This document shows, one piece after another, positions 7,570-43,587 of a DNA stretch of 64,000 bases. Positions within the stretch are counted from its first letter, which is position 1, and each line of letters opens with the position of its first letter. The translations under genes and the position numbers were made by a program. Source of the stretch: Naegleria gruberi (Eukaryota); assembly GCA_000004985.1 (NCBI GenBank), contig GG738896.1, one strand, 5' to 3'. The notes under the pieces are model-generated. The model searched no databases. It saw only the letters and a list, made by a program, of their open reading frames with translations, and was not told where the DNA came from.

Positions 7570-7930
7570 TATTATTATTATTAATAGTTTGTTATATTAA
7601 TTATATTAATTATATTAATTTAAATAGATTACACAATTTTATAGAGATGATCAAAGAGAGATAATATCACAACAACAATATAGTGTGTAGTGATGATGTT
7701 TTTTTTGATTGCTTTTTAAAAACCGTTGCCATGATGATGACTTTGTGATGGTGTGATGACTTTTTCCATTGGGTTCATTAATAGATAACATGAACTTTTG
7801 ACAAGAGAAGGGCGACCCAATCCCATTAATCACTGCATCATATCAATACCATTAAATAATACAATAAATAATATTTATTTAAATTAATAAATTATTATAA
7901 TACACACAATTTACAAATAATATTAAATTA

Positions 7931-9408
7931 TTATTCTTGTTGTTGTTGTTGTTGTTGTTGTTCAATATTATTATTATTAAATAAAGTAGGATCTCTAATA
8001 ATTTGTCTTTTAAAAGTAGGTTTAGTAAATTCAGTTAATTCTCTAGCATAGATTTCATATCTAGAAGTGGATTGAAACATCCATCTATCTTTAACTTGTC
8101 TATTTAAATTTAAATCAATTTCAGTAACTAGTAAACCATCACCTAATCTAGTTAATTCAGGTGATCTACTTGCATCAGGTGCACTAACATATGATGATCC
8201 ATAGAAATGTCCAAAATCTTTATGTGCTTTTTTACCATCAGCTGATGTAAATTCATTTGGAAATACTTCTGTACCAACTCTATTAATACTTGCTACAAAA
8301 TAACTATTAGCAATAGCTGCATTTCTTGCTTCTATTTTAATATTAAATATAAATTAAATTAAAATATAAATTAAATATAAATATATTAAATAATATAAAT
8401 ATAAATTAAATAAATAAATAAAAAACATACCAATTGACCACATAGGTTCAGATAAAGTACCAACAGTAGCAGAAGGATTAAAAACAATTTCAGCACCATT
8501 TAAACCATAAGATTGCCAATTTAAAGGAATATGTCTACCATAACAAATATTAATACCAATTCTACCAAAATCAGTTTCAAAAACAGGATGACCTAAATTA
8601 CCTTCCAAATAATAAGTTGCTTCATTAAAATCTCCAACACGTGGTATATGATTCTTTCTAACTTTACCAATATAATTACCTCTATTACCAATTACAACTG
8701 CTGTATTCCAAATTACATCATTATGTTCTGAATCTCTTTCTAAAATTGATGATACAATTACCATATTATATTTTTTAGCTAATTTAGATAAAAATTGTGT
8801 TGAACGTCCTGTTTCTGCTTCTTCAGAAAATTCCATCCATGGCTATATTAAATTATTATTATTATTTTTATATTAAATATTAAATATATTAAAATAAATA
8901 TTAAATAGTAAATATATTAAAATAAATAAAAAATATTAAATATATTAAATAAAATAATATAAAAAAAACCTACTTGTTTTTCTCTTGTACAAAAAGCAAA
9001 TGGCATTGTCCATGCTTCTTGTAAACCAATAACATTAACACCCATTAAATAGGCAGAATCAATAATTTTTTCAATTTTAGATTCAATTGCCTTATATTGT
9101 ACATCAATTGGTTCAGTTGTATTGGTTACAATAGAATTTTGTATTAAACCTAATTTAACAATACGTGGTTTTCTAGATTGTTCTAATTGAACATTATCAA
9201 TCATTGAATAAGCTCTAACTTCAAAATTATGTTCAATTGCTTGTTCTTTTACTTGTTTTGGAATTGGAAGTGATTTCCATTCATTACCATATAAAATACG
9301 ACGAACTTGTGAAAAGGTTTCTTGTGGAAGGTGTTGTTTTAATGCATCATATACTGTTGAAAGTGATGTCATTGGATCATTTGGTTTAATATGTTGATTA
9401 TTTTCCAT
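7931..9408 (-). CDS. pyd3: beta-ureidopropionase (beta-alanine synthase, nitrilase/CN-hydrolase superfamily), 3 exons
   Basis: Exons on minus strand: 9408..8974, 8842..8431, 8331..7931. Introns of 131 and 99 nt, with GTAGGT and GTATGT donors. The alignment to human UPB1 is near-colinear: [20 protein letters not shown]|[95 protein letters not shown]. The start was chosen at MENNQ… (9408). The ORF extends further upstream to 9549. Confidence 0.9.
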
Positions 9409-19926: not shown

Positions 19927-19999
19927 CGCCCACCGTGGGGGTCGAACCCACGACCACAAGGTTAAGAGCCTTGCGCTCTACCGACTGAGCTAGACGGGC
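19927..19999 (-). tRNA. tRNA-Lys (anticodon CUU)
   Basis: The reverse complement GCCCGTCTAGCTCAGTCGGTAGAGCGCAAGGCTCTTAACCTTGTGGTCGTGGGTTCGACCCCCACGGTGGGCG folds as a cloverleaf. A and B boxes are present. It closely matches eukaryotic tRNA-Lys-CTT. Confidence 0.9.
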
Positions 20000-20336
20000 T
20001 TCACGTCCTAACACAACTACAAGATATTTTGTGTTTATCTTATTGTCAATTCCCATGTAGGGAAGTTTGTCATTTGGAATTACATGATGCTATAGTTTGC
20101 TATTCTCTTTAAATTAGACAATCAACACAAAAATCAACAGTTCAACAAAAGATGGTGGATGGAGTTAATTACTTGTTCGACAATAGTATGTATGTACATG
20201 AGTTTATTTACATGTTAGAATATCAAATACATATGTTAGAAAGAATGAATTAAATACACTGCTGATGAAAGGCTTTTTGTTTCATTTTTTGATATTAAGA
20301 AAAATACAATGTATTGAACAACTGGCAAAAGGAACT

Positions 20337-20409
20337 CTCCCCCTGGTGGGCTCGAACCACCGACCTGCAGATTAACAGTCTGACGCTCTACCGACTGAGC
20401 TAAGGGGGA
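20337..20409 (-). tRNA. tRNA-Asn (anticodon GUU)
   Basis: The reverse complement TCCCCCTTAGCTCAGTCGGTAGAGCGTCAGACTGTTAATCTGCAGGTCGGTGGTTCGAGCCCACCAGGGGGAG has a 7-bp acceptor stem. The anticodon loop is CTGTTAA. The T-arm GGTGGTTCGAGCCCACC is typical of tRNA-Asn. Confidence 0.85.
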
Positions 20410-20569
20410 ATTCATAGGCTGTTGAAAATATCTATAAATCTTATCATATATCGATAGAATGAAAAAACACAAAGCAAACTATTTAACTAATATAAGATTT
20501 CAGGCTTACTTTCTTCCTATGTGTAGCATTAAAAATTGCAAGTTTAGAGAGGAAAAAAAAAGTTCAAAA

Positions 20570-33320: not shown

Positions 33321-34640
33321 TCATTCAATTGATTTAATTAGAATGTCTGTATAAATTTGTCTATTGAGTGTCGAATAGAGTTTTGGAAAGGTTCTATAAA
33401 TTTTAAAATCATAAAGAGGATTCACTTGAATAACTATGTGGGTGTCTGTTCTTCTCTGTTCATCATATCCACCATAGAGATTGATGATACCTCTTTCCTC
33501 ATCAATAAATATTGAGCTACAATTGAGTGGAAGAATATTTTCAACCTCAAGTAGAGTCCATGTGTTATATTTCAAATTGTAAATATAACTGTCAGAGTAG
33601 GGAATGTAATCATCATTACATCCACCAAAAATAAACATTTCATCATTCGATATTTTACAAGTGGTTCCTGCATGTCCAAATAGAGGAGGTGTAATACTAT
33701 TGTCATAGGTTTTCCACACTAAAGTACTTAAATTCAATATACATAATTGGTTGGTAAGTGTTTGATTGTCCACACCAATATCACCTCCATAAATAACAAG
33801 CACATCAGTATTGTCTTTTTTCATGAGAATTCCACTCGAATATCCTCGTGGCACTATTTCATCTCCTGTTGTTGCTAACTTGGTCCATTTTCTGAGTGAA
33901 ATATTAAATTCCCATACATCTGAATAGGATTCATCTCCACATCCTCCAAATAAGAGTAATGAATGATTACTCTCTCTGTACAGAAATACATGACCTCTTC
34001 TTCTAGATGGCCATTCAGAATTTCCATCAGTTGGTTCTGTAAATTGCTCCCAATTCCACTGACAGGTTCTTCCATCTACACGTATTAAATCATTGTAATA
34101 TTTTGATTCTTGGTTATCGAGCCCTCCAAACATCCAAAATATTGGGTCATTCTCTTGTTTAGTAAAGCCATGATAGTATCGTGAATCTTTTTTATCCAGA
34201 TTGGAAGAAATTGGTTTCATCCATGTATATGTTCTCAAATCAAATCTATGAATCTTTCCATTTGTTTCATTTCTTCCTCCCCAAAAGTAAACAATTCCAT
34301 CATGATGAACCACACAAGTATGTGAATCTGAATCACCTATTGAAAATCGACCATCAAAATAATTGTATGCAGGCAACAATCTTCCAACTTTAATCATCAA
34401 TATTGATGGTGAAATATATATTAAAAACCTACCCTCTGATCGATCAGCCAATTCATAACCAGAAGTCTGCATCACTGGTTCCTTGTATTCATCCTCATCT
34501 TCAGTAGTTGTTGTTGTTGTTGTTGTATTCACTTCTTCTTCTTCTACTTTACGTAGACACAAACATCTCTGTCTGAACCAATTTACAGTCCCATCACGTG
34601 CAAGTAATTCCTTCTTCATTATTCTTTGTTTGGATATCAA
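33321..34640 (-). CDS. kelch-repeat (beta-propeller) protein
   Basis: 439-aa ORF. Repeated kelch signatures: YFWGG, MFGGLDN, LLLFGGCGD…SDVWEF, VIYGGDIG, MFIFGGCND…W. Confidence 0.75.
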   Translation of the reverse strand: MISKQRIMKKELLARDGTVNWFRQRCLCLRKVEEEEVNTTTTTTTTEDEDEYKEPVMQTSGYELADRSEGRFLIYISPSILMIKVGRLLPAYNYFDGRFSIGDSDSHTCVVHHDGIVYFWGGRNETNGKIHRFDLRTYTWMKPISSNLDKKDSRYYHGFTKQENDPIFWMFGGLDNQESKYYNDLIRVDGRTCQWNWEQFTEPTDGNSEWPSRRRGHVFLYRESNHSLLLFGGCGDESYSDVWEFNISLRKWTKLATTGDEIVPRGYSSGILMKKDNTDVLVIYGGDIGVDNQTLTNQLCILNLSTLVWKTYDNSITPPLFGHAGTTCKISNDEMFIFGGCNDDYIPYSDSYIYNLKYNTWTLLEVENILPLNCSSIFIDEERGIINLYGGYDEQRRTDTHIVIQVNPLYDFKIYRTFPKLYSTLNRQIYTDILIKSIE

Positions 34641-36875: not shown

Positions 36876-38476
36876 ATGAACATACAGGAAGAAGTAAATC
36901 ATCAACAGCAACAGGAAACTTCTCCTAGAACACCACTCAGTGAATCTCCTCCTCTTCCTTCAACAACATCTCTTTTATCTGATAATCATCATGATGATAC
37001 TAACCCAATGAATAATAACAATAACAATAATAATACTAGTAGTGATGATAATAATAAGAATAATAATATAACAATTGATGATCCTATGGAAGAAAAGGAT
37101 GAAGAAGAAGAAGAAGAACATTTTGAAAGACCAAAAAACCTCTCCTCCTTTCTTTTATTATTAAAACAATCTAAAACATATAGGAATTTATTTAAGAAGT
37201 TTTTGGGATTATTATGTATATTGGTAGTGGTGATTTTGTGGACATTGGGAGGTGAAGCAATTCAATTAATTTATTCAGATATGGACTATGAGAAACCTTT
37301 TCTGGTCACCTATATTAGTACTAGTTTATTTTCAATTTACTTGTTGGGATTTATATTTGTTGGAACGTGGAGAAGACCATTGTTAAAAAGTGTATCTTGG
37401 TTGATTAGAGCTAGTTTAAATTGTTGTTTACCAAAACAGGTGTGTGAAAGAATGGGAATTTCACAAATTGATAGAAGAGAATATTCTAGAGTTGGGTCAG
37501 CAAGTCAAGATTTAAGTCAAACACAAGTTGAAAATCAATCAAATGATGTGGATGTTGGAAAAACATTTAGATTGGCTGTGATTGTGACATTCTTTTGGTT
37601 CTTTTCAAATACTGCTTATAATTATGCATTACTTTATACCAGTGTGGCCAGGTAAGTGTTCTTCCTGATCATTGATTCGACAATTTTACAATATTTAGTG
37701 ATACAATCATTTCTAATACTTCATGTTTATTTACATTTCTAGTTGGTTTATTAATTGGTGTGGAAACTCATTTCAGTGTTTTACGATTTATTGCAATTCT
37801 TGTGACCTTATCAGGTGTTGCACTTGTAACTTTATCAGATAGTCATCACAATGGAACAGGAATGAAAACAGATACTGTTTTGGGTAATATGCTTAGTTTA
37901 TTAGCAGCTATGGGATATGGTATCTATAGTTCAATATTGAAAAAGTATGAGGAAAATGTTTCAATGGCCATGATGTTTGGATTTGTTGGAATTTTGAATT
38001 TATTCTTCAATTGGCCAATTTTATTCATTCTTTGGGGATTGGATGTAGAAACATTTGAATTACCTTCTTGGAAAATATTCTTTGCAACAGTTGTTAATAG
38101 TTTAATTTCTGCTGTTTTGAGTGATTTATTATGGGCATTGGCAGTTGTCTTGACATCTCCAGTAATTGCCACAGTTGGTTTAACTCTAACAATTCCATTT
38201 GCCATCGTTTGTGACATGTTAATTCGTTCAGATTTTTCAGCGTTCAATGTAATGTATGCATTTGGTACTCTATTTGTCTTGTTTGGATTCATTGCTGTTA
38301 ACACATCATATTATCTTCCAAAGAAAGCTAGAAAATATGATCAACCATACTTTTGCAGTGTTGCCTATCTTGTTACAAAGGTAAAACCACTCATGCTTTC
38401 TTCCACCCCTGTTGGAGATATTGAGTCAAACAAAACTATTCGAAATTCCAATAACCAATCACCAAATTCTCATTAA
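36876..38476 (+). CDS. SLC35F / EamA-like (drug-metabolite transporter superfamily) membrane protein, 2 exons
   Basis: Exons: 36876..37651 and 37699..38476. The 47-nt intron (GTAAGT…TTTAG) reconstitutes the EamA motif YTSVAR|SDTIISNTSCLFTFL. Ten predicted TM segments. N-terminal N-rich tract. Confidence 0.7.
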
Positions 38477-38702: not shown

Positions 38703-41055
38703 ATGTTATTCAGAATTACAGTTGTTAAATGTACTGATCTTCCACCCATGGATGCCAATGGACTATCCGATGGTTTTTGTGAATTGTGGGTTGTCAATTC
38801 GAAAACCAACAAATACCTCGAACCACCAAAGAATCAAAATGAAATTAAACGTACACAAATTGTCATGAAGAATTTAAATCCAGTCTTTAATGAAACTTTT
38901 GAATTTGATTTTAGTGAAAAGTTGAAGAGACGTGAAATTGATTTTGCAACAAGAGTATCAGAGGAAGATGATATTGATGATGATTATATTCTTGATGATC
39001 CGATGGATAATTTATTAATGATTAGAATTGTTGATTATGACAAATTCACAAAGAATGATGGTATGTATTGAATGATGGTTGTTATATAGTAGCTATATTG
39101 TTCATGATGTTACTACTGATGATGTTATTGATGATGACGATCAAAACTTGTGGATTGTTGTGAAATTGTTGAATATTATGATTTTATATAATTGATTGAA
39201 TAATATAATTAATTGAATATGATGATATTGAATAGTAATTGGATTTGTTCTACTTCAAGTATTCGGATTGAATTTAAAACCAAATGAAAAGCAACGTAGA
39301 ACTTTTCCAATTGTTGGTTCTGATCAGGGTTCTATTGAATTGATTATTGAATCTGTTTATGATCCAAAATCAATGCAAGGTTCTAGTTTTGCTAATTTAC
39401 CAGCTGTTTCCTCACTTTCATATGAAGCTGATGCTCCTTCAAATGTTATCATGACAGTTGGTCCAGTGATTGGTTTAGTAAAGAGTACTAGTGCTAGAAT
39501 TCTTGTGGAATGTTCGAAAGATTTGATTAATAATAATGATTCCGAGTTGGTATTGGATGTGGTTTGTTATCCAATTTGTGAAAGATCTCATTTAGAGAAG
39601 AGAGATGATTATCTCAATAAGCGTTTATTGCATCTACATATGCATGATACTCATGGTTCTTATCATGAAGCTATTCTTAAACGTTCACTTTTAACAAAAT
39701 CAAAGAGGGAAACTCTTAAAGCAACTAATATAATCAAAAAGAAGGTCATTATTCCAAATGCCAACATTCCACACACCTTTACAATTGAAGGTTTATCTCC
39801 AGATTATGTTTATAGAGTTGAATTCCCTAATGTTGTTAATACCAAGACAAGAGTTGGTATTATCAAGACAATGGTTAGTGATAATTTGGGAAATCTCAAT
39901 ACTAGATCACACCATTTGAACACGGCAGCTGTTAGTTGCAATTTAATTGAAAGACGTATTCCTGATAAGGATGTTTGGGAAAGAATGTTAGAAAAAGTTG
40001 ATGAACTTGACATTTTAATGCATTGTGGTGATCAAATTTATAGTGATTGTGGTCACAATGCATTCGATGAAGCAAAAAGAATTTGTGATGGTAGAATTAA
40101 ACTTGAAAAGGATGAGGAAAATGAAATTAAGGAACTTTTTAGAAAGTATTACAGATTAAATTGGAATCACCCTCCAACTAGAAGAATCATGTCTCAAGTT
40201 TCAAATTTAATGATCTTGGATGATCATGAAATTAGAGATGATTGGGGATCTGATGAATGTGATAAGGATAAGGGATCTGTTGAATATTATATTGGTAGAT
40301 TGGCACGTGAAGTTTATTGGGAATATCAAAGAAGTCTCAGAGAAGATGTCCTCTCAATGAATTATGAGGAAACTTTCAAGAAACATGAAGGATATTATCA
40401 TGTGTTTGGTGATTATGCAATCTTATTCTTAGATTTGAGAGCTGCTCGTTCATTCAATTCAGAATTGTCAGGAGATAAACCATTCCTAACACAACCTCAA
40501 TGGGATGATTTAAATAATTGGCTTTTCAAGGATAATAATGCCCTTGCTTCTGAGAATATAAAGGCATTGATTTGTGTCTGTTCCGTTCCATTAGTTTTCC
40601 TTAATAAGAAGATGACTGATAGTTTACCAAAGATTACTTCTAAACTTTCAGATATGAGAGACCACTGGAATTATGGACATCAATTTAATGAACAAATTGG
40701 TATTCTCAACTCAATTAATAGATGGAAGAAAGAACAGCCAAATAGAGAAGCAGTATTTGTTGCTGGTGATGTACATATTGGAGGTGTTACTGAAATTATG
40801 TATAATAATGAAATGGTATTGAAACAATTAACCACTAGTTCTGTTTCTAACAATGAATTTTCATGGTGTTTAGGATTATCAATGAGATTTATGCTCACTA
40901 AGAGTTCAGAACTCAAAGAAGGTTGGACATTTAAACATCAAAAGTGGACAAGAAAACGTAATTATGGAATTCTTAATATTGCAACAGACGGTGAAAAAGT
41001 TACACCAGTGATGAATCCTTACTTGAATACTTACATTAAATCATATAGATATTAA
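38703..41055 (+). CDS. C2 domain fused to PhoD-like metallophosphoesterase, 2 exons
   Basis: Exons: 38703..39060 and 39260..41055. 199-nt intron. C2 features: CTDLPPMDANGLSDGFCELWV, LNPVFNETFEFDF, IVDYDKFTKND|V. PhoD-like motifs in exon 2: HCGDQIYSD, ILDDHEIRDDWG, FVAGDVHIGG. Confidence 0.7.
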
Positions 41056-41117: not shown

Positions 41118-43587
41118 ATGGGCAACAAGGCATCAACACAGGGCAGAATTGGAAGATCTAGATTGGAAATAATTGATTGGAATGATGAGGAGGGAATCAT
41201 ACCACCACCATCATCGGTTATTAAAATATGGAATAGACACGATTTATTGGAGCAAACTTTGACCGATCGAGTAGATATTGACTATTACTATAGAAAATCG
41301 TTGGATAGCAAACCTTTCAAGGTAATTATTAAATATTATTATAATTATTTAATAATAATTAAAAGGTGAATTTATTGTCTGAAGGCTACACTAAGGATCA
41401 AGTTGCCGATTTTGAAACTCATCCCCATCCATCCTATAGATCTAATAATAGGAAAATTTGTTTAAGACTTAAAGAATTGTTTAACAGGATTGAATTGGAA
41501 AATCTGATGGAACATTTGGAAAAACTCCAGTTTCATTCTTTGGAAAAGGAATATCCAAAAGAATATAGAAATTGTAAGAGAGTTTTAATTAAGAGCAAAC
41601 CAATGGCAGATGCTATTTGGAATAGAATTAAACCAATGTTGAAGGTTTCAGATTTTAAAGATTTGAGACCTTATGGATTTGACAATGAAGGATTGTGGAA
41701 ACCTATTGGAATTAATGAAGTATTAAGAATTTCAAAATATGAGGAGGGTGGATATTTCAAACCTCATATGGATGGTCAATTTGTTATCGATGATAATCGA
41801 AAGAGTATTTTAACTGTATTAATTTATTTGAGCCAAAGTTTTAGTGCAGGAACAAATTATTATCATTGTATTGAAAAGAAAGATAATTCTCTATTATTGC
41901 AACACGTACTCTCTACTAATTGCAATATTGGTGATTGTATTCTTTTTAATCATGAAATTTTTCATAGCGGAGAGCCAGTAGATTATGGTACCAAGTATGT
42001 ACTCAGAACTGAAATTATCTTCCAACGTGTAGATGAGGATAATGTTTCTCGTACTGATTATAAACTCAGTCAAGAATATCAGAATATTAAGAACCTTGTT
42101 GAGGAAAGTGATAGATTGGAAAAAGAAGGGGATATTGAAAAATCTACCAAAGTTTACCTTGAAGCTCAATATTTACAAATGAACATTTCATCAAATCTTC
42201 AATGTAGTAAGCCAAGCTTTTTGGAAAGCACACTTCCATCAGAGGTCTTATCACTAATTTTCAGCTATCTTACTCCTACAGAGGTCTGTACGAGTATTGT
42301 CTATCTGAACAGGAATTTGAATGCGAGTGCAAGAGACCAATACACTTGGAAACAAAGATACAAAGACGAATGGTGCGACATCTCAAAAAATGGGTTTGAC
42401 TATAACTCTACCATTATGAAAATGGAAGAGGATATATTTCATGACCTCACAGATTGGTTTCATTTATTTGTTTCCAGGAAAAATCTTGATAAGGAATTTT
42501 GTGCATTTATTGTTAATCCAGGTCCAAATTATTTCAGGTATGCCCTCAAGAGTGATTCAAATATGAGATTTGAGATTTCATATAGTGGAATTGGAATACA
42601 TAGCCAGTAAGTTTAAATTCAAAGATCATGACCTAACATCACATCTTTGTAAATAGTTTTTTCTTTCCTGGAAAAGGGCTTAACGATCTATTTCTTGGTG
42701 ATGCAGGAAAGCAATACCAAAGACTTTATGATCCTATTGATTTATTCATAGATCAAGAAGCAGTTGATCCTATGATTTTAGCTTGTTTTATTGAGTACAT
42801 ATTGAGAGATTCTTTGGACTTGAGTTTGAAACAATATCCAGTACTCCTAGCCAAACCATTCATGTTTTCAAGTGAGGACGAGGAGATTTTGAAAGATATT
42901 CTTGTAAGTTATTAAGTTTATATAATGAAATCTAGAATTGGATAGTTTGGAGCTGGAATACCTGCACTTCATATCGAACACTCTTACACATTGATTTCCT
43001 TATATTATGGAATGCCTAATTGTACAATAATAGATATACGCCCAGATTATGTAGGTGTTGCAGTTGTAGAAAATGGAAAACCATTACCAACATCAACATT
43101 CTTCTCACCAGACTTGACTAATTTTAAACATCATATTAAAGCTCACTATGATATGGACTGGCCAAACAAGTTCGTCCAACAAAATGCAATAGTAAGAATT
43201 GATGAAGATGATAGTTCATCAGTTCAGTATGGATTTGGAGAGTTATTTTACACAACAATTTTACCATACATTGAGGAATTTTTACAAAAATTAGAGAATG
43301 CTCCTCCAAGTACAATTATTAGAGGTGAATTATCACTTGTTCCGGGGCTTGTAACAAGATTAATTAAGGATCTTTCTGGAAAATTTGTGGAGAAAAACTT
43401 TACATTCACTCACGACCCTGAAAATTGTGTTTGGGATATTTTGAAGGGAGGTAAAATAATGTCAAATCTAAGTGATTTCAAAGAAAAATGTCAAAAGAGT
43501 GGAAACTATGAACAAGTTTGCCATCCTTCGCAATATGCTACTTTTGATCAACTTTCTCAAAAAATCAAACAATCAAATAACAAGTAA
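41118..43587 (+). CDS. fusion protein: N-myristoylation signal, prolyl-4-hydroxylase-like 2OG-Fe(II) oxygenase, F-box, divergent actin-related protein (Arp), 4 exons
   Basis: Exons: 41118..41321, 41366..42606, 42657..42903, 42946..43587. Introns of 44, 50 and 42 nt, with GTAATT, GTAAGT and GTAAGT donors. N-terminus MGNKAS. Oxygenase HxD…H…R triad: PHMDGQF, FHSGEPV, KYVLRTEI. F-box: LPSEVLSLIFSYLTPTEVCTSIVYLNRNL…W. The Arp N-terminal subdomain begins in the same continuous ORF (FIVNPGPNYFRYALKSDSNMRFEISYSGIG, compare actin [28 protein letters not shown]). It continues through LFLGDAGKQY, PVLLAKPF, TIIDIRPDYVGVAVVENGKPL and IIRGELSLVPGL. Confidence 0.6.

What the first reader, a model, noticed from the sequence alone, without database searches (positions are those of the whole stretch)
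38703..41055. C2 (Ca2+/lipid-binding) domain fused to a PhoD-like metallophosphoesterase
Exon 1 encodes a complete C2 domain. Exon 2 encodes a roughly 590-aa region with the PhoD/calcineurin-like metallophosphoesterase signature (GDQIYSD, DDHEIRDDWG, GDVHIGG). PhoD-family enzymes are typically secreted alkaline phosphatases or phosphodiesterases. A cytosolic, C2-targeted version implies Ca2+-dependent membrane recruitment of a phosphoesterase, which is an uncommon combination.
Basis: partly seen in the sequence, partly recalled or inferred. Interest (0 to 1): 0.5.

Follow-up and report, generated by a model that had tools for sequence, protein, structure and literature searches.

The report
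C2-tethered PhoD-type phosphoesterase gene
A two-exon Naegleria gruberi gene encodes a cytosolic iron/calcium PhoD-type phosphoesterase with a calcium-sensing, membrane-binding C2 domain at its N-terminus, and it belongs to an unstudied enzyme clade that eukaryotes have repeatedly joined to calcium sensors and membrane anchors.

Summary
Window 38703-41055 (+) is a two-exon gene of Naegleria gruberi: exon 1 38703-39060, a 175-nt GT..AG phase-1 intron, and exon 2 39236-41055. It encodes 725 aa. Pfam finds C2 (E=1e-17) and PhoD (E=2e-17).

One detail needs correcting. Exon 1 does not hold a complete C2 domain, because the intron splits it and strands 6-8 lie in exon 2. The same intron, in the same phase, is present in N. 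fowleri and in a second Naegleria paralogue. The two exons therefore cannot be separate genes.

All nine metal-ligand positions of B. subtilis PhoD are occupied, two as Asn-to-Asp changes. All five Ca2+-ligand Asp of synaptotagmin-type C2 domains are present. There is no signal peptide or transmembrane segment.

The PhoD part belongs to a signal-less clade. Its eukaryotic members carry C2 domains at the N-terminus, the C-terminus or inserted internally, in at least four separate lineages. Others carry EF-hands, a voltage-gated cation channel, or CaaX boxes (34 of 150; P=4e-28).

The best reading is a Ca2+-recruited, membrane-proximal phosphoesterase, possibly acting on phospholipid head groups. 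The substrate is unknown. I found no literature on it. I rate it a new variant of a known kind.

The parts
38703..39060 (+). Exon 1. Codons 1-119 plus the first base of codon 120. Encodes C2 strands 1-5, Ca2+-binding loop 1 (D17, D23), an acidic insertion (about residues 72-102) and loop 3 (D111, D113, D119).
   Evidence: ORF and splice. (Pfam C2). (alignment to synaptotagmin C2 domains).
38751..38771 (+). C2 Ca2+-binding loop 1. The codons of D17 (38751-38753) and D23 (38769-38771) correspond to Syt1 D172 and D178.
   Evidence: alignment. HMMER alignments to Syt3 and Syt7.
39033..39059 (+). C2 Ca2+-binding loop 3. D111, D113, T116 and D119 correspond to Syt1 D230, D232, S235 and D238. The loop ends one base before the splice donor.
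39061..39235 (+). Intron, 175 nt, GTATGT...AATAG, phase 1. It lies inside the C2 domain between loop 3 and strand 6.
   Evidence: this is the frame-preserving donor/acceptor pair that restores the conserved IGFV strand; the same position and phase occur in N. fowleri L001 (exon ends at 8682, next exon starts at 8781) and in the paralogue-B locus L002 (ends at 7752, starts at 7987).
39236..41055 (+). Exon 2. Last two bases of codon 120, codons 121-725 and the TAA stop.
39236..39357 (+). C-terminal third of the C2 domain (strands 6-8, residues about 120-160).
   Evidence: eight strands in the orthologue model, three of them after the intron position. (Syt7 alignment of query residues 101-164).
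39448..39912 (+). N-terminal beta-sandwich of the PhoD module (residues about 191-345). It resembles DUF7800 / PhoD_N / PAP-N and carries a Naegleria-specific helical insertion (about residues 232-290).
39913..41052 (+). PhoD catalytic (calcineurin-like metallophosphoesterase) domain, residues about 346-725. There is no C-terminal capping helix.
39937..39939 (+). Codon of C354, equivalent to the Fe3+ thiolate ligand Cys-180 of B. subtilis PhoD.
   Evidence: alignment plus PMC4223295. Cys in 172 of 177 clade members.
40027..40047 (+). GDQIYSD motif. D385 corresponds to Bs D207 and Y388 to the Fe3+ tyrosinate Bs Y210.
40219..40248 (+). DDHEIRDDWG motif. D448 and D449 correspond to Bs D265 and D266. 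D454 and D455 correspond to Bs N271 and N272 (Asn to Asp).
   Evidence: The mutagenesis list is in PMC4223295.
40765..40785 (+). GDVHIGG motif. D631 corresponds to Bs D436 (which bridges Fe and CaA). H633 corresponds to Bs H438.

Best explanation
SHOWN

The locus is a single two-exon gene of Naegleria gruberi. Its 725-aa product has four parts, in order:
- a synaptotagmin-type C2 domain (residues 1 to about 160);
- a short linker;
- a beta-sandwich;
- a PhoD-type metallophosphoesterase domain.

The product has no signal peptide or membrane span. Every residue that ligates the Fe3+/Ca2+/Ca2+ centre in B. subtilis PhoD is present (two positions as Asn-to-Asp changes). Every Asp that ligates Ca2+ in synaptotagmin or PKC C2 domains is present.

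INFERRED

The protein is a soluble cytosolic enzyme at resting Ca2+. When Ca2+ rises, the C2 loops bind Ca2+ and dock onto acidic phospholipids. This brings the uncapped PhoD active site to the cytosolic face of a membrane. The active site itself needs two Ca2+ ions, so activity would be gated by Ca2+ twice.

At the membrane it would hydrolyse a phosphomono- or phosphodiester. The most likely substrate is a phospholipid head group, giving PLD/PLC-like or lipid-phosphatase chemistry, as in the PhoD-type phospholipase D of Streptomyces. The substrate identity is the weakest step.

The wider clade supports a Ca2+/membrane role. Independent eukaryotic lineages attached C2 domains, EF-hands, a voltage-gated cation channel or a prenylation box to the same catalytic module.
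For: Gene and organism
- Neighbouring ORFs are identical to N. gruberi XP_002672642 and XP_002672570.

Domains and fold
- Pfam: C2 E=1e-17, PhoD E=2e-17.
- Orthologue model: pLDDT 83, pTM 0.85. Foldseek top hit is 2YEQ (E=2e-18), followed by C2 domains.

One transcript
- The phase-1 intron inside the C2 domain is conserved in N. fowleri and in paralogue B.
- Full-length C2+PhoD orthologues exist: P0001 at 64% identity and P0003.

Catalytic centre
- Bs C180/D207/Y210/D265/D266/N271/N272/D436/H438 map to C354/D385/Y388/D448/D449/D454/D455/D631/H633 (with PMC4223295).
- Seven of these columns are at least 95% conserved in 177 clade members. At the two Asn-equivalent positions (D454/D455) Asp is the commonest residue (143 and 146 of 177), with Asn next (29 and 13).

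C2 ligands
- D17, D23, D111, D113 and D119 are all Asp.

Cytosolic location
- No hydrophobic N-terminus or transmembrane segment.
- Bacterial relatives start at the first strand with no signal peptide.

Comparative support
- C-terminal C2 in P0121 (Paradermamoeba), P0142, P0216, P0177 and P0211.
- EF-hand pair plus a C2 inserted inside the PhoD domain in P0178 and P0169.
- A four-repeat ion channel with a C-terminal PhoD in P0168, as one uninterrupted ORF.
- CaaX-type ends in 34 of 150 members, binomial P=4e-28.
- C2, EF-hand and the ion channel were the only recurrent partner domains in the Pfam scans.
- The C2-bearing groups are never sisters in 100 NJ bootstraps.

Precedent
- PhoD-fold enzymes can act on phospholipids and are strongly Ca2+-activated (S. 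chromofuscus and S. avermitilis PLD, PMC13435022).
- The models show no C-terminal capping helix.
Against: - There is no expression, localisation or enzymology for any member of this clade.
- The C2 part of the model has only moderate confidence (pLDDT 50-80).
- C2 domains with all five Asp usually bind Ca2+, but not always.
- The substrate is unconstrained. Bacterial homologues are solitary genes with no informative neighbours.
- N271 and N272 are Asp-Asp here, so the second and third metals may not be Ca2+.
- The tree used to argue for independent fusions is a rough NJ tree, and the taxa of most members are unknown.
- No N. gruberi protein record for the locus could be retrieved.
Confidence: 0.6

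Rival explanations
1. Membrane-proximal enzyme for soluble substrates. The protein is an active phosphatase or phosphodiesterase that works on soluble phosphoesters such as nucleotides, sugar phosphates or glycerophosphodiesters, for phosphate economy. The C2 domain only concentrates it at a membrane or organelle, possibly constitutively rather than as a Ca2+ switch.
Against: All five Ca2+-ligand Asp of the C2 are kept, both in the two Naegleria species compared (N. gruberi and N. fowleri) and in most independent fusions. The only recurrent partners across the clade are Ca2+ modules and lipid anchors. That is hard to explain for a housekeeping scavenger.
Confidence: 0.2
2. Ca2+-signal terminator. 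The enzyme is recruited or activated by Ca2+ to destroy a phosphorylated Ca2+-mobilising messenger close to channels. Candidates are an inositol phosphate, NAADP 2'-phosphate or cyclic ADP-ribose. This would give negative feedback.
For: One clade member is fused to the cytosolic tail of a four-repeat voltage-gated cation channel in a single ORF. EF-hand and C2 fusions also exist. From my own knowledge, a Ca2+-dependent 2'-phosphatase activity that degrades NAADP has been described biochemically in animal membranes.
Against: This is purely associative. No messenger pathway of this kind is documented in Naegleria. CaaX and C2 anchoring fits a lipid substrate equally well.
Confidence: 0.1
3. Catalytically dead scaffold. 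The PhoD module has lost activity and serves as a binding domain, like GAP50 or Vps29 in the same superfamily.
Against: All nine ligand positions are retained in the window protein. Seven are at least 95% conserved over 177 sequences, and the two Asn-equivalent positions are Asp or Asn in about 90-97% of them. That pattern indicates purifying selection on the metal centre.
Confidence: 0.04
4. Gene-model artefact. A small C2 gene and a separate PhoD gene lie in tandem and are not spliced together.
For: Prokaryote-style gene callers report the two exons as separate ORFs (142 aa plus 611 aa in L002 and L003; P0257 is the exon-1 ORF). No transcript data were available.
Against: Exon 1 stops inside the C2 fold, and strands 6-8 are in exon 2. 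Exon 2 has no ATG until codon 166. The intron position and phase are conserved in three loci and two paralogues. NCBI models in N. fowleri and N. lovaniensis join the exons.
Confidence: 0.02

Closest known systems
Bacillus subtilis PhoD (PDB 2YEQ), Fe3+/2Ca2+ phosphodiesterase and alkaline phosphatase D
   Different: BsPhoD is exported by a 56-residue Tat signal peptide and has a C-terminal helix capping the active site. The window protein has neither. Bs N271 and N272 are Asp-Asp here. Sequence identity is only about 15-17%. BsPhoD has no C2 domain.
PhoD-type phospholipase D of Streptomyces chromofuscus and S. avermitilis (PDB 9UYA)
   Same: It is in the PhoD superfamily (profile E=2e-14). 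It lacks the capping helix, so it has an open cleft. It is strongly Ca2+-activated and shows that this fold can hydrolyse membrane phospholipids (PMC13435022).
   Different: It is a secreted bacterial enzyme that binds membranes through its own surface Ca2+ sites, not through a C2 domain. Conservation of its hydrophobic cleft and choline pocket residues could not be tested here.
Eukaryotic C2-bearing lipid enzymes: cPLA2 (C2 + lipase), PLC-delta/zeta (EF-hand + catalytic + C2), plant PLD-alpha (C2 + HKD), PTEN (phosphatase + C2)
   Same: The design logic is the same: a C2 domain, with or without EF-hands, delivers a catalytic domain to the membrane. The EF-hand/PhoD/C2 members P0178 and P0169 mimic the PLC domain set. 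cPLA2 and PLC-delta C2 domains appear among the Foldseek hits.
   Different: The catalytic folds and chemistries are unrelated. This is an analogy of architecture, not homology of the enzyme.
Membrane-anchored eukaryotic PhoDs (Babesia BdPhoD, Plasmodium PF3D7_0912400, Phaeodactylum PtPhos5/6)
   Same: They are eukaryotic PhoD-domain proteins held at membranes (PMC10907312).
   Different: They have a signal peptide plus a C-terminal transmembrane helix and enter the secretory or apicoplast system. The window protein is peripheral and cytosolic, and belongs to the signal-less DUF7800+PhoD clade.
Purple acid phosphatases
   Different: PAPs use Asp instead of Cys at the Fe site, and a His2-Asp-Asn site for a single divalent metal. 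The window protein has the PhoD ligand set.

Membership tests
PhoD-like phosphatase family (Pfam PF09423) | Significant match to the family HMM above the curated threshold | tested here: met
   63.8 bits against a cut-off of 27, E=2e-17, profile positions 4-338 of 343.
PhoD-like phosphatase family (Pfam PF09423) | PhoD fold: N-terminal beta-sandwich plus calcineurin-like beta-sandwich core | tested here: met
PhoD-like phosphatase family (Pfam PF09423) | Fe3+ ligand set Cys/Asp/Tyr/Asp/His (Bs C180, D207, Y210, D436, H438) | tested here: met
   C354, D385, Y388, D631 and H633. The ligand list comes from PMC4223295. I assigned Y210 and H438 from the motif and the PAP analogy.
PhoD-like phosphatase family (Pfam PF09423) | Two Ca2+ sites (Bs D265, D266, N271, N272) | tested here: inconclusive
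   D448, D449, D454 and D455 occupy the positions. The paper notes that N272 to Asp occurs in the family. N271 to Asp is additional. Metal identity cannot be read from sequence.
PhoD-like phosphatase family (Pfam PF09423) | Export (Tat or Sec signal), typical of canonical 'extra-cytoplasmic' PhoD | tested here: not met
   The protein starts with C2 strand 1. There is no hydrophobic N-terminus or transmembrane segment. The nearest bacterial relatives also lack signal peptides. The protein is therefore a member of the fold family but not of the secreted alkaline phosphatase D functional group.
PhoD-like phosphatase family (Pfam PF09423) | Phosphomono- or diesterase activity | not testable with these tools
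   Needs recombinant enzyme.
C2 domain (Pfam PF00168), Ca2+-dependent type | Significant HMM match and eight-stranded beta-sandwich | tested here: met
   64.7 bits against a cut-off of 22. The orthologue model has eight strands. Foldseek finds C2 domains at E about 5e-8 with TM-score about 0.7 normalised to the target length.
C2 domain (Pfam PF00168), Ca2+-dependent type | Five acidic Ca2+ ligands in loops 1 and 3 (Syt1 D172, D178, D230, D232, D238) | tested here: met
   D17, D23, D111, D113 and D119 (supported by the HMMER alignments to Syt3 and Syt7). The Syt1 numbering is from my own knowledge.
C2 domain (Pfam PF00168), Ca2+-dependent type | Ca2+-dependent phospholipid binding | not testable with these tools
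   Needs liposome binding or live-cell translocation assays.
PhoD-type phospholipase D (S. chromofuscus type) | Open active-site cleft without a C-terminal capping helix | tested here: met
   The models end in beta-strands with no terminal helix. Compare PMC13435022.
PhoD-type phospholipase D (S. chromofuscus type) | Hydrophobic acyl-chain cleft, choline pocket and extra surface Ca2+ sites; PLD activity | not tested
   Model coordinates cannot be inspected with these tools, and sequence identity is too low for a residue-level transfer.

The most novel reading that the evidence does not exclude
The gene is the N. gruberi member of a widespread, unstudied eukaryotic family of cytosolic Fe/Ca PhoD-type phosphoesterases. 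These act as effector enzymes of Ca2+ signalling at membranes. This would be a further class of Ca2+-activated phospholipid-head-group (or messenger) hydrolase, alongside PLC, cPLA2 and C2-PLD. It is absent from animal and yeast models, which would explain why it has been overlooked. Catalysis would be gated twice by Ca2+, through the C2, EF-hand or channel tether and through the two catalytic Ca2+ sites.
Probability: 0.3. Interest if true: 0.75.

Novelty: new variant of a known kind. Interest (0 to 1): 0.55.

Why it matters
PhoD is known as a secreted phosphate-scavenging enzyme of bacteria and algae. This locus suggests that a signal-less branch of the family works inside cells.

In eukaryotes that branch has been coupled again and again to Ca2+ sensors (C2, EF-hand), to a voltage-gated cation channel and to prenyl anchors. 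Such convergence is strong circumstantial evidence for an unrecognised Ca2+-controlled reaction at the cytosolic face of membranes. The organisms involved include Heterolobosea (among them the genus of the pathogen N. fowleri), Amoebozoa, euglenozoans, dinoflagellates and a fern.

The finding gives a concrete, testable candidate enzyme with defined point mutants. It also offers a possible non-animal target in Naegleria.

Tried and rejected
1. Bacterial gene neighbourhoods of three close homologues (Kiloniella L004, Blastocatellia L005, L006). There are no shared neighbours and no functional hint.

2. A suspected EF-hand at the N-terminus of P0051 and P0052, seen by eye. Pfam gave no hit at E<=0.1, so the idea was dropped. 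Genuine EF-hands were later found in P0178 and P0169.

3. Retrieval of the N. gruberi protein or contig for the locus.
- Exact look-ups of four gene models failed.
- Look-ups of the exon-2 ORF and of a neighbouring protein found no contig.
- Only the exon-1 ORF (P0257) is on record.
- Whether the 2010 annotation has a model here cannot be decided.

I used the orthologue P0001 and the contiguous exon-2 translation instead.

5. The AFDB Foldseek library was unavailable.

6. The sigma-70 promoter and terminator scan is irrelevant for a eukaryote and gave chance-level results.

7. Literature searches found nothing relevant. These covered C2+PhoD, DUF7800, Naegleria alkaline phosphatase D and the orthologue locus tags.

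8. The alternative acceptor at 39260 keeps the frame but deletes the conserved IGFVLLQ strand. It was rejected as the main isoform.

9. Synteny with N. fowleri. The neighbours differ: ArfGap, an ABC transporter and Sel1 there, against a multi-pass membrane protein and a 2OG-oxygenase/F-box protein here. This gives no support and no contradiction.
Full report
WHAT IS THERE

The window is AT-rich eukaryotic DNA (GC about 0.30). Two of its unspliced ORFs are identical to Naegleria gruberi proteins XP_002672642 and XP_002672570, which lie on a 331,721-bp scaffold. The source is therefore N. gruberi.

At 38703 an ATG opens a 122-codon ORF. From 39268 to 41055 a second ORF runs in another frame. The donor after 39060 (G|GTATGT) and the acceptor before 39236 (AATAG|TA) join them in frame. 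A second acceptor before 39260 also keeps the frame, but it deletes a conserved strand. The product is 725 aa.

Pfam reports C2 (PF00168, E=1e-17) and PhoD (PF09423, E=2e-17, residues 352-707), with a weak PhoD_2 hit. The observation and its coordinates are correct.

CORRECTION TO THE OBSERVATION, AND WHY IT HELPS

Exon 1 is not a complete C2 domain. HMMER alignments to synaptotagmin-7 and -3 run from residue 4 to about residue 164, across the splice junction at residue 120. The AlphaFold model of the N. fowleri orthologue has eight C2 strands, three of them after the junction.

Exon 1 alone cannot fold. The first 40 residues of exon 2 make sense only as the end of a C2 domain. Exon 2 has no ATG before codon 166.

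The intron falls at the identical codon (..KND|x-IGFV..) and phase (1) in three loci:
- the N. fowleri gene (L001; exon ends at 8682, resumes at 8781);
- a second Naegleria paralogue (L002; 7752 and 7987);
- the window.

NCBI models in N. fowleri (P0001, 732 aa, 64% identity, full length) and N. lovaniensis (P0003, 701 aa) join C2 and PhoD in the same way. The 'two separate transcripts' refutation is therefore rejected on sequence grounds, although no transcript data were available.

IS THE ENZYME INTACT?

A profile of the clade aligns to B. subtilis PhoD (2YEQ) at E=8e-17 and to the S. avermitilis PhoD-type phospholipase D (9UYA) at E=2e-14. I converted chain indices to the paper's numbering (+56). 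The residues whose mutation abolishes or cripples PhoD are C180, D207, D265, D266, N271, N272 and D436 (PMC4223295). Together with the tyrosinate Y210 and H438, they correspond to window C354, D385, D448, D449, D454, D455, D631, Y388 and H633.

Both Asn are Asp here. The paper itself notes that N272 to Asp occurs in the family.

Across 177 clade members:
- seven of these columns are at least 95% conserved (for example C in 172 of 177 and D631 in 171 of 177);
- D454 and D455 are Asp in 143 and 146 sequences, with Asn as the main alternative.

IS THE C2 A CALCIUM SENSOR?

I aligned the domain to synaptotagmin-1 C2A (sequence and numbering from my own knowledge). The five Ca2+-ligand Asp (D172, D178, D230, D232, D238) correspond to D17, D23, D111, D113 and D119. 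All are Asp in the window protein and in N. fowleri. The same positions match in the tool-generated alignments to Syt3 and Syt7.

Model confidence in the C2 is moderate (pLDDT 50-80). This is partly due to a roughly 30-residue acidic insertion. Ca2+-dependent lipid binding is therefore likely but inferred.

WHERE DOES THE PROTEIN SIT?

There is no signal peptide. The highest 19-residue hydropathy (1.59) is a conserved core strand, not a membrane span.

The closest relatives outside Naegleria are about 455-aa bacterial 'alkaline phosphatase D family' proteins from Blastocatellia, Pyrinomonadaceae and Kiloniella, at 32-38% identity. They begin 'M..ITVGPVIG' at the first strand of the beta-sandwich, leaving no room for the 56-residue Tat peptide of BsPhoD. 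The whole clade (DUF7800 + PhoD) is therefore cytoplasmic.

THE WIDER PATTERN

An exhaustive HMMER search with the N. fowleri orthologue against 1.84 billion representatives found 1,809 relatives, 169 of them at E<1e-30. Among the best 150:

1. Thirty-four end with Cys at position -4, often preceded by further Cys. The Cys frequency is 1.7%, giving a binomial P of 4e-28. Named examples are from Ploeotia vitrea, Ansanella granifera and the fern Adiantum capillus-veneris. This is the signature of prenylated proteins.

2. C2 domains follow the PhoD domain in P0121 (Paradermamoeba levis), P0142 (UniProt F2DF58, labelled barley cDNA), P0216, P0177 and P0211.

3. P0178 and P0169 have an N-terminal EF-hand pair and a C2 domain inserted inside the PhoD domain. 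P0178 is one uninterrupted ORF seen in two samples.

4. P0168 is a 2,372-aa four-repeat voltage-gated cation channel (Ion_trans x4 and a GPHH motif) with DUF7800-PhoD on its C-terminal tail. It is encoded by a single 7,119-nt ORF.

5. A Pfam census of 52 further long members found only one other partner domain that fits this pattern, another EF-hand, besides three isolated weak single-member hits.

Most of the independent C2 domains keep the Ca2+ ligands. In a neighbour-joining analysis (69 taxa, 433 columns, 100 bootstraps):
- the Naegleria clade is monophyletic in 100 of 100 replicates;
- it is never sister to another C2-bearing group (0 of 100);
- at least 12 C2-less taxa always intervene (full tree).

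Together with the different positions of the C2 (N-terminal, C-terminal in two clades, internal), this indicates at least four independent fusions. The tree is rough, and most taxa are unnamed.

MECHANISM

Shown: one gene, two intact domains, a cytosolic protein.

Inferred:
- The protein is soluble at rest.
- A Ca2+ rise makes the C2 dock on acidic lipids.
- This places an uncapped Fe3+/Ca2+/Ca2+ centre at the membrane surface.

PhoD-type enzymes need Ca2+ for catalysis. The Streptomyces enzyme is so Ca2+-dependent that it is used to assay serum calcium. In the low-Ca2+ cytosol the catalytic site itself would then be Ca2+-limited. That may be why evolution keeps attaching Ca2+-microdomain tethers to this module.

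The substrate is unknown. A phospholipid head group is my preferred guess. The PhoD fold has a proven phospholipase D representative with an open cleft. The EF-hand/catalytic/C2 arrangement of P0178 copies the PLC domain set. CaaX and C2 anchoring puts the site at the bilayer.

I give 0.6 to 'active, Ca2+-recruited, membrane-proximal phosphoesterase'. Within that, I give perhaps 0.35-0.4 to a lipid substrate.

Rivals:
- an enzyme for soluble substrates, with C2 used only for localisation (0.2);
- a degrader of a Ca2+-mobilising messenger (0.1);
- a dead scaffold (0.04);
- a gene-model artefact (0.02).

COMPARISON WITH WHAT IS KNOWN

The protein is a member of the PhoD fold family. The HMM match, the fold and the Fe ligand set are all met. 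It fails the 'exported' trait of canonical alkaline phosphatase D.

It works like the C2-bearing lipid enzymes (cPLA2, PLC, plant PLD-alpha, PTEN) by analogy of architecture only. It differs from the signal-peptide plus transmembrane PhoDs of apicomplexans and diatoms.

I found no paper on a C2-PhoD protein, on DUF7800, or on a Naegleria PhoD. The architecture is visible in automatic annotations of N. fowleri, N. lovaniensis and F2DF58.

VERDICT

The finding is real and correctly read, apart from the exon and domain detail. It is a new variant of known kinds (PhoD enzymes, and C2-targeted enzymes), not a new category.

Its interest is raised by the clade-wide, convergent coupling to Ca2+ and membrane modules. 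To my knowledge this is undescribed, and it makes a specific biochemical hypothesis testable. Interest 0.55.

LEADS THAT WENT NOWHERE

- Bacterial neighbourhoods gave no functional hint.
- No N. gruberi protein record for the locus could be retrieved.
- The AFDB library was unavailable.
- There is no synteny with N. fowleri.

Noticed in passing
Relatives P0045, P0050, P0124, P0125, P0130, P0140 and others (34 of the 150 best representatives): Eukaryotic members of the same signal-less PhoD clade end in CaaX-type boxes (CSIM, CTLI, CNIF, CTVA and others), often with extra upstream Cys. The binomial P is 4e-28. Named sources are Ploeotia vitrea, Ansanella granifera and Adiantum capillus-veneris.
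   Followed up: partly
P0168, encoded at L007:278-7396: A 2,372-aa four-repeat voltage-gated cation channel (Ion_trans x4, PKD_channel, GPHH) carries a C-terminal DUF7800-PhoD module. It is one uninterrupted 7,119-nt ORF on a Logan contig (DRR659772). The organism is unknown.
   Followed up: partly
P0178 (L008:19-2394, L009:19-2394) and P0169: These have an EF-hand pair at the N-terminus and a C2 domain inserted inside the PhoD catalytic domain. The domain set resembles PLC (EF-hand / catalytic / C2). The ORF was seen in two independent samples.
   Followed up: partly
P0121 (Paradermamoeba levis), P0142 (UniProt F2DF58, labelled Hordeum vulgare cDNA), P0216, P0177, P0211: These have the reverse domain order, DUF7800-PhoD followed by a C-terminal C2. 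F2DF58 clusters with an amoebozoan sequence, so the barley label may reflect a contaminant in the cDNA library.
   Followed up: partly
P0003 (N. lovaniensis C9374_005329) against P0002 (L002:8001-9836): The N. lovaniensis gene model lacks about 30 residues that include the GDQIY metal-ligand motif. The near-identical protein P0002 keeps them. This is probably a mis-called intron in the annotation rather than a dead enzyme.
   Followed up: no
L002:7410-9836, L003:3983-6409, L001:8001-10715: Naegleria has two paralogues of the C2-PhoD gene. Type A comprises the window gene and N. fowleri FDP41_001724. Type B comprises P0002 and P0003, where the fifth C2 ligand is Glu. N. fowleri type A has at least three introns in the C2 region against one in N. 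gruberi.
   Followed up: partly
window 38703-41055: No N. gruberi protein for this locus was returned by the 5.8-billion-protein search or by exact look-ups, although neighbouring genes of the window are present. Only the 122-aa exon-1 ORF (P0257, ENA contig) is on record.
   Followed up: partly
window 38916-39008 (residues about 72-102) and about 39571-39747 (residues about 232-290): There are lineage-specific insertions: an acidic, low-confidence loop inside the C2 domain and a helical insertion inside the PhoD N-terminal beta-sandwich. The latter is shared by both Naegleria paralogues. Their function is unknown.
   Followed up: no
window 41118-42610 (+): The downstream gene starts only 63 bp after the stop codon. 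It has a short first exon and then a protein with a 2OG-Fe(II) oxygenase domain followed by an F-box-like motif, an unusual pairing.
   Followed up: no
window 36876-38476 (+): The upstream gene has two ORF blocks, 36876-37655 and 37760-38476. It encodes a multi-pass hydrophobic protein with an Asn-rich N-terminus. Pfam gave no hit on either block alone. It ends 227 bp before the C2-PhoD start codon.
   Followed up: no
window 19927-19999 (-) and 20336-20410 (-): tRNA-Lys(CTT) and tRNA-Asn(GTT) genes lie about 340 bp apart.
   Followed up: no
window 33324-34640 (-): An ORF encoding a Kelch-repeat beta-propeller protein (Pfam E=5e-41).
   Followed up: no
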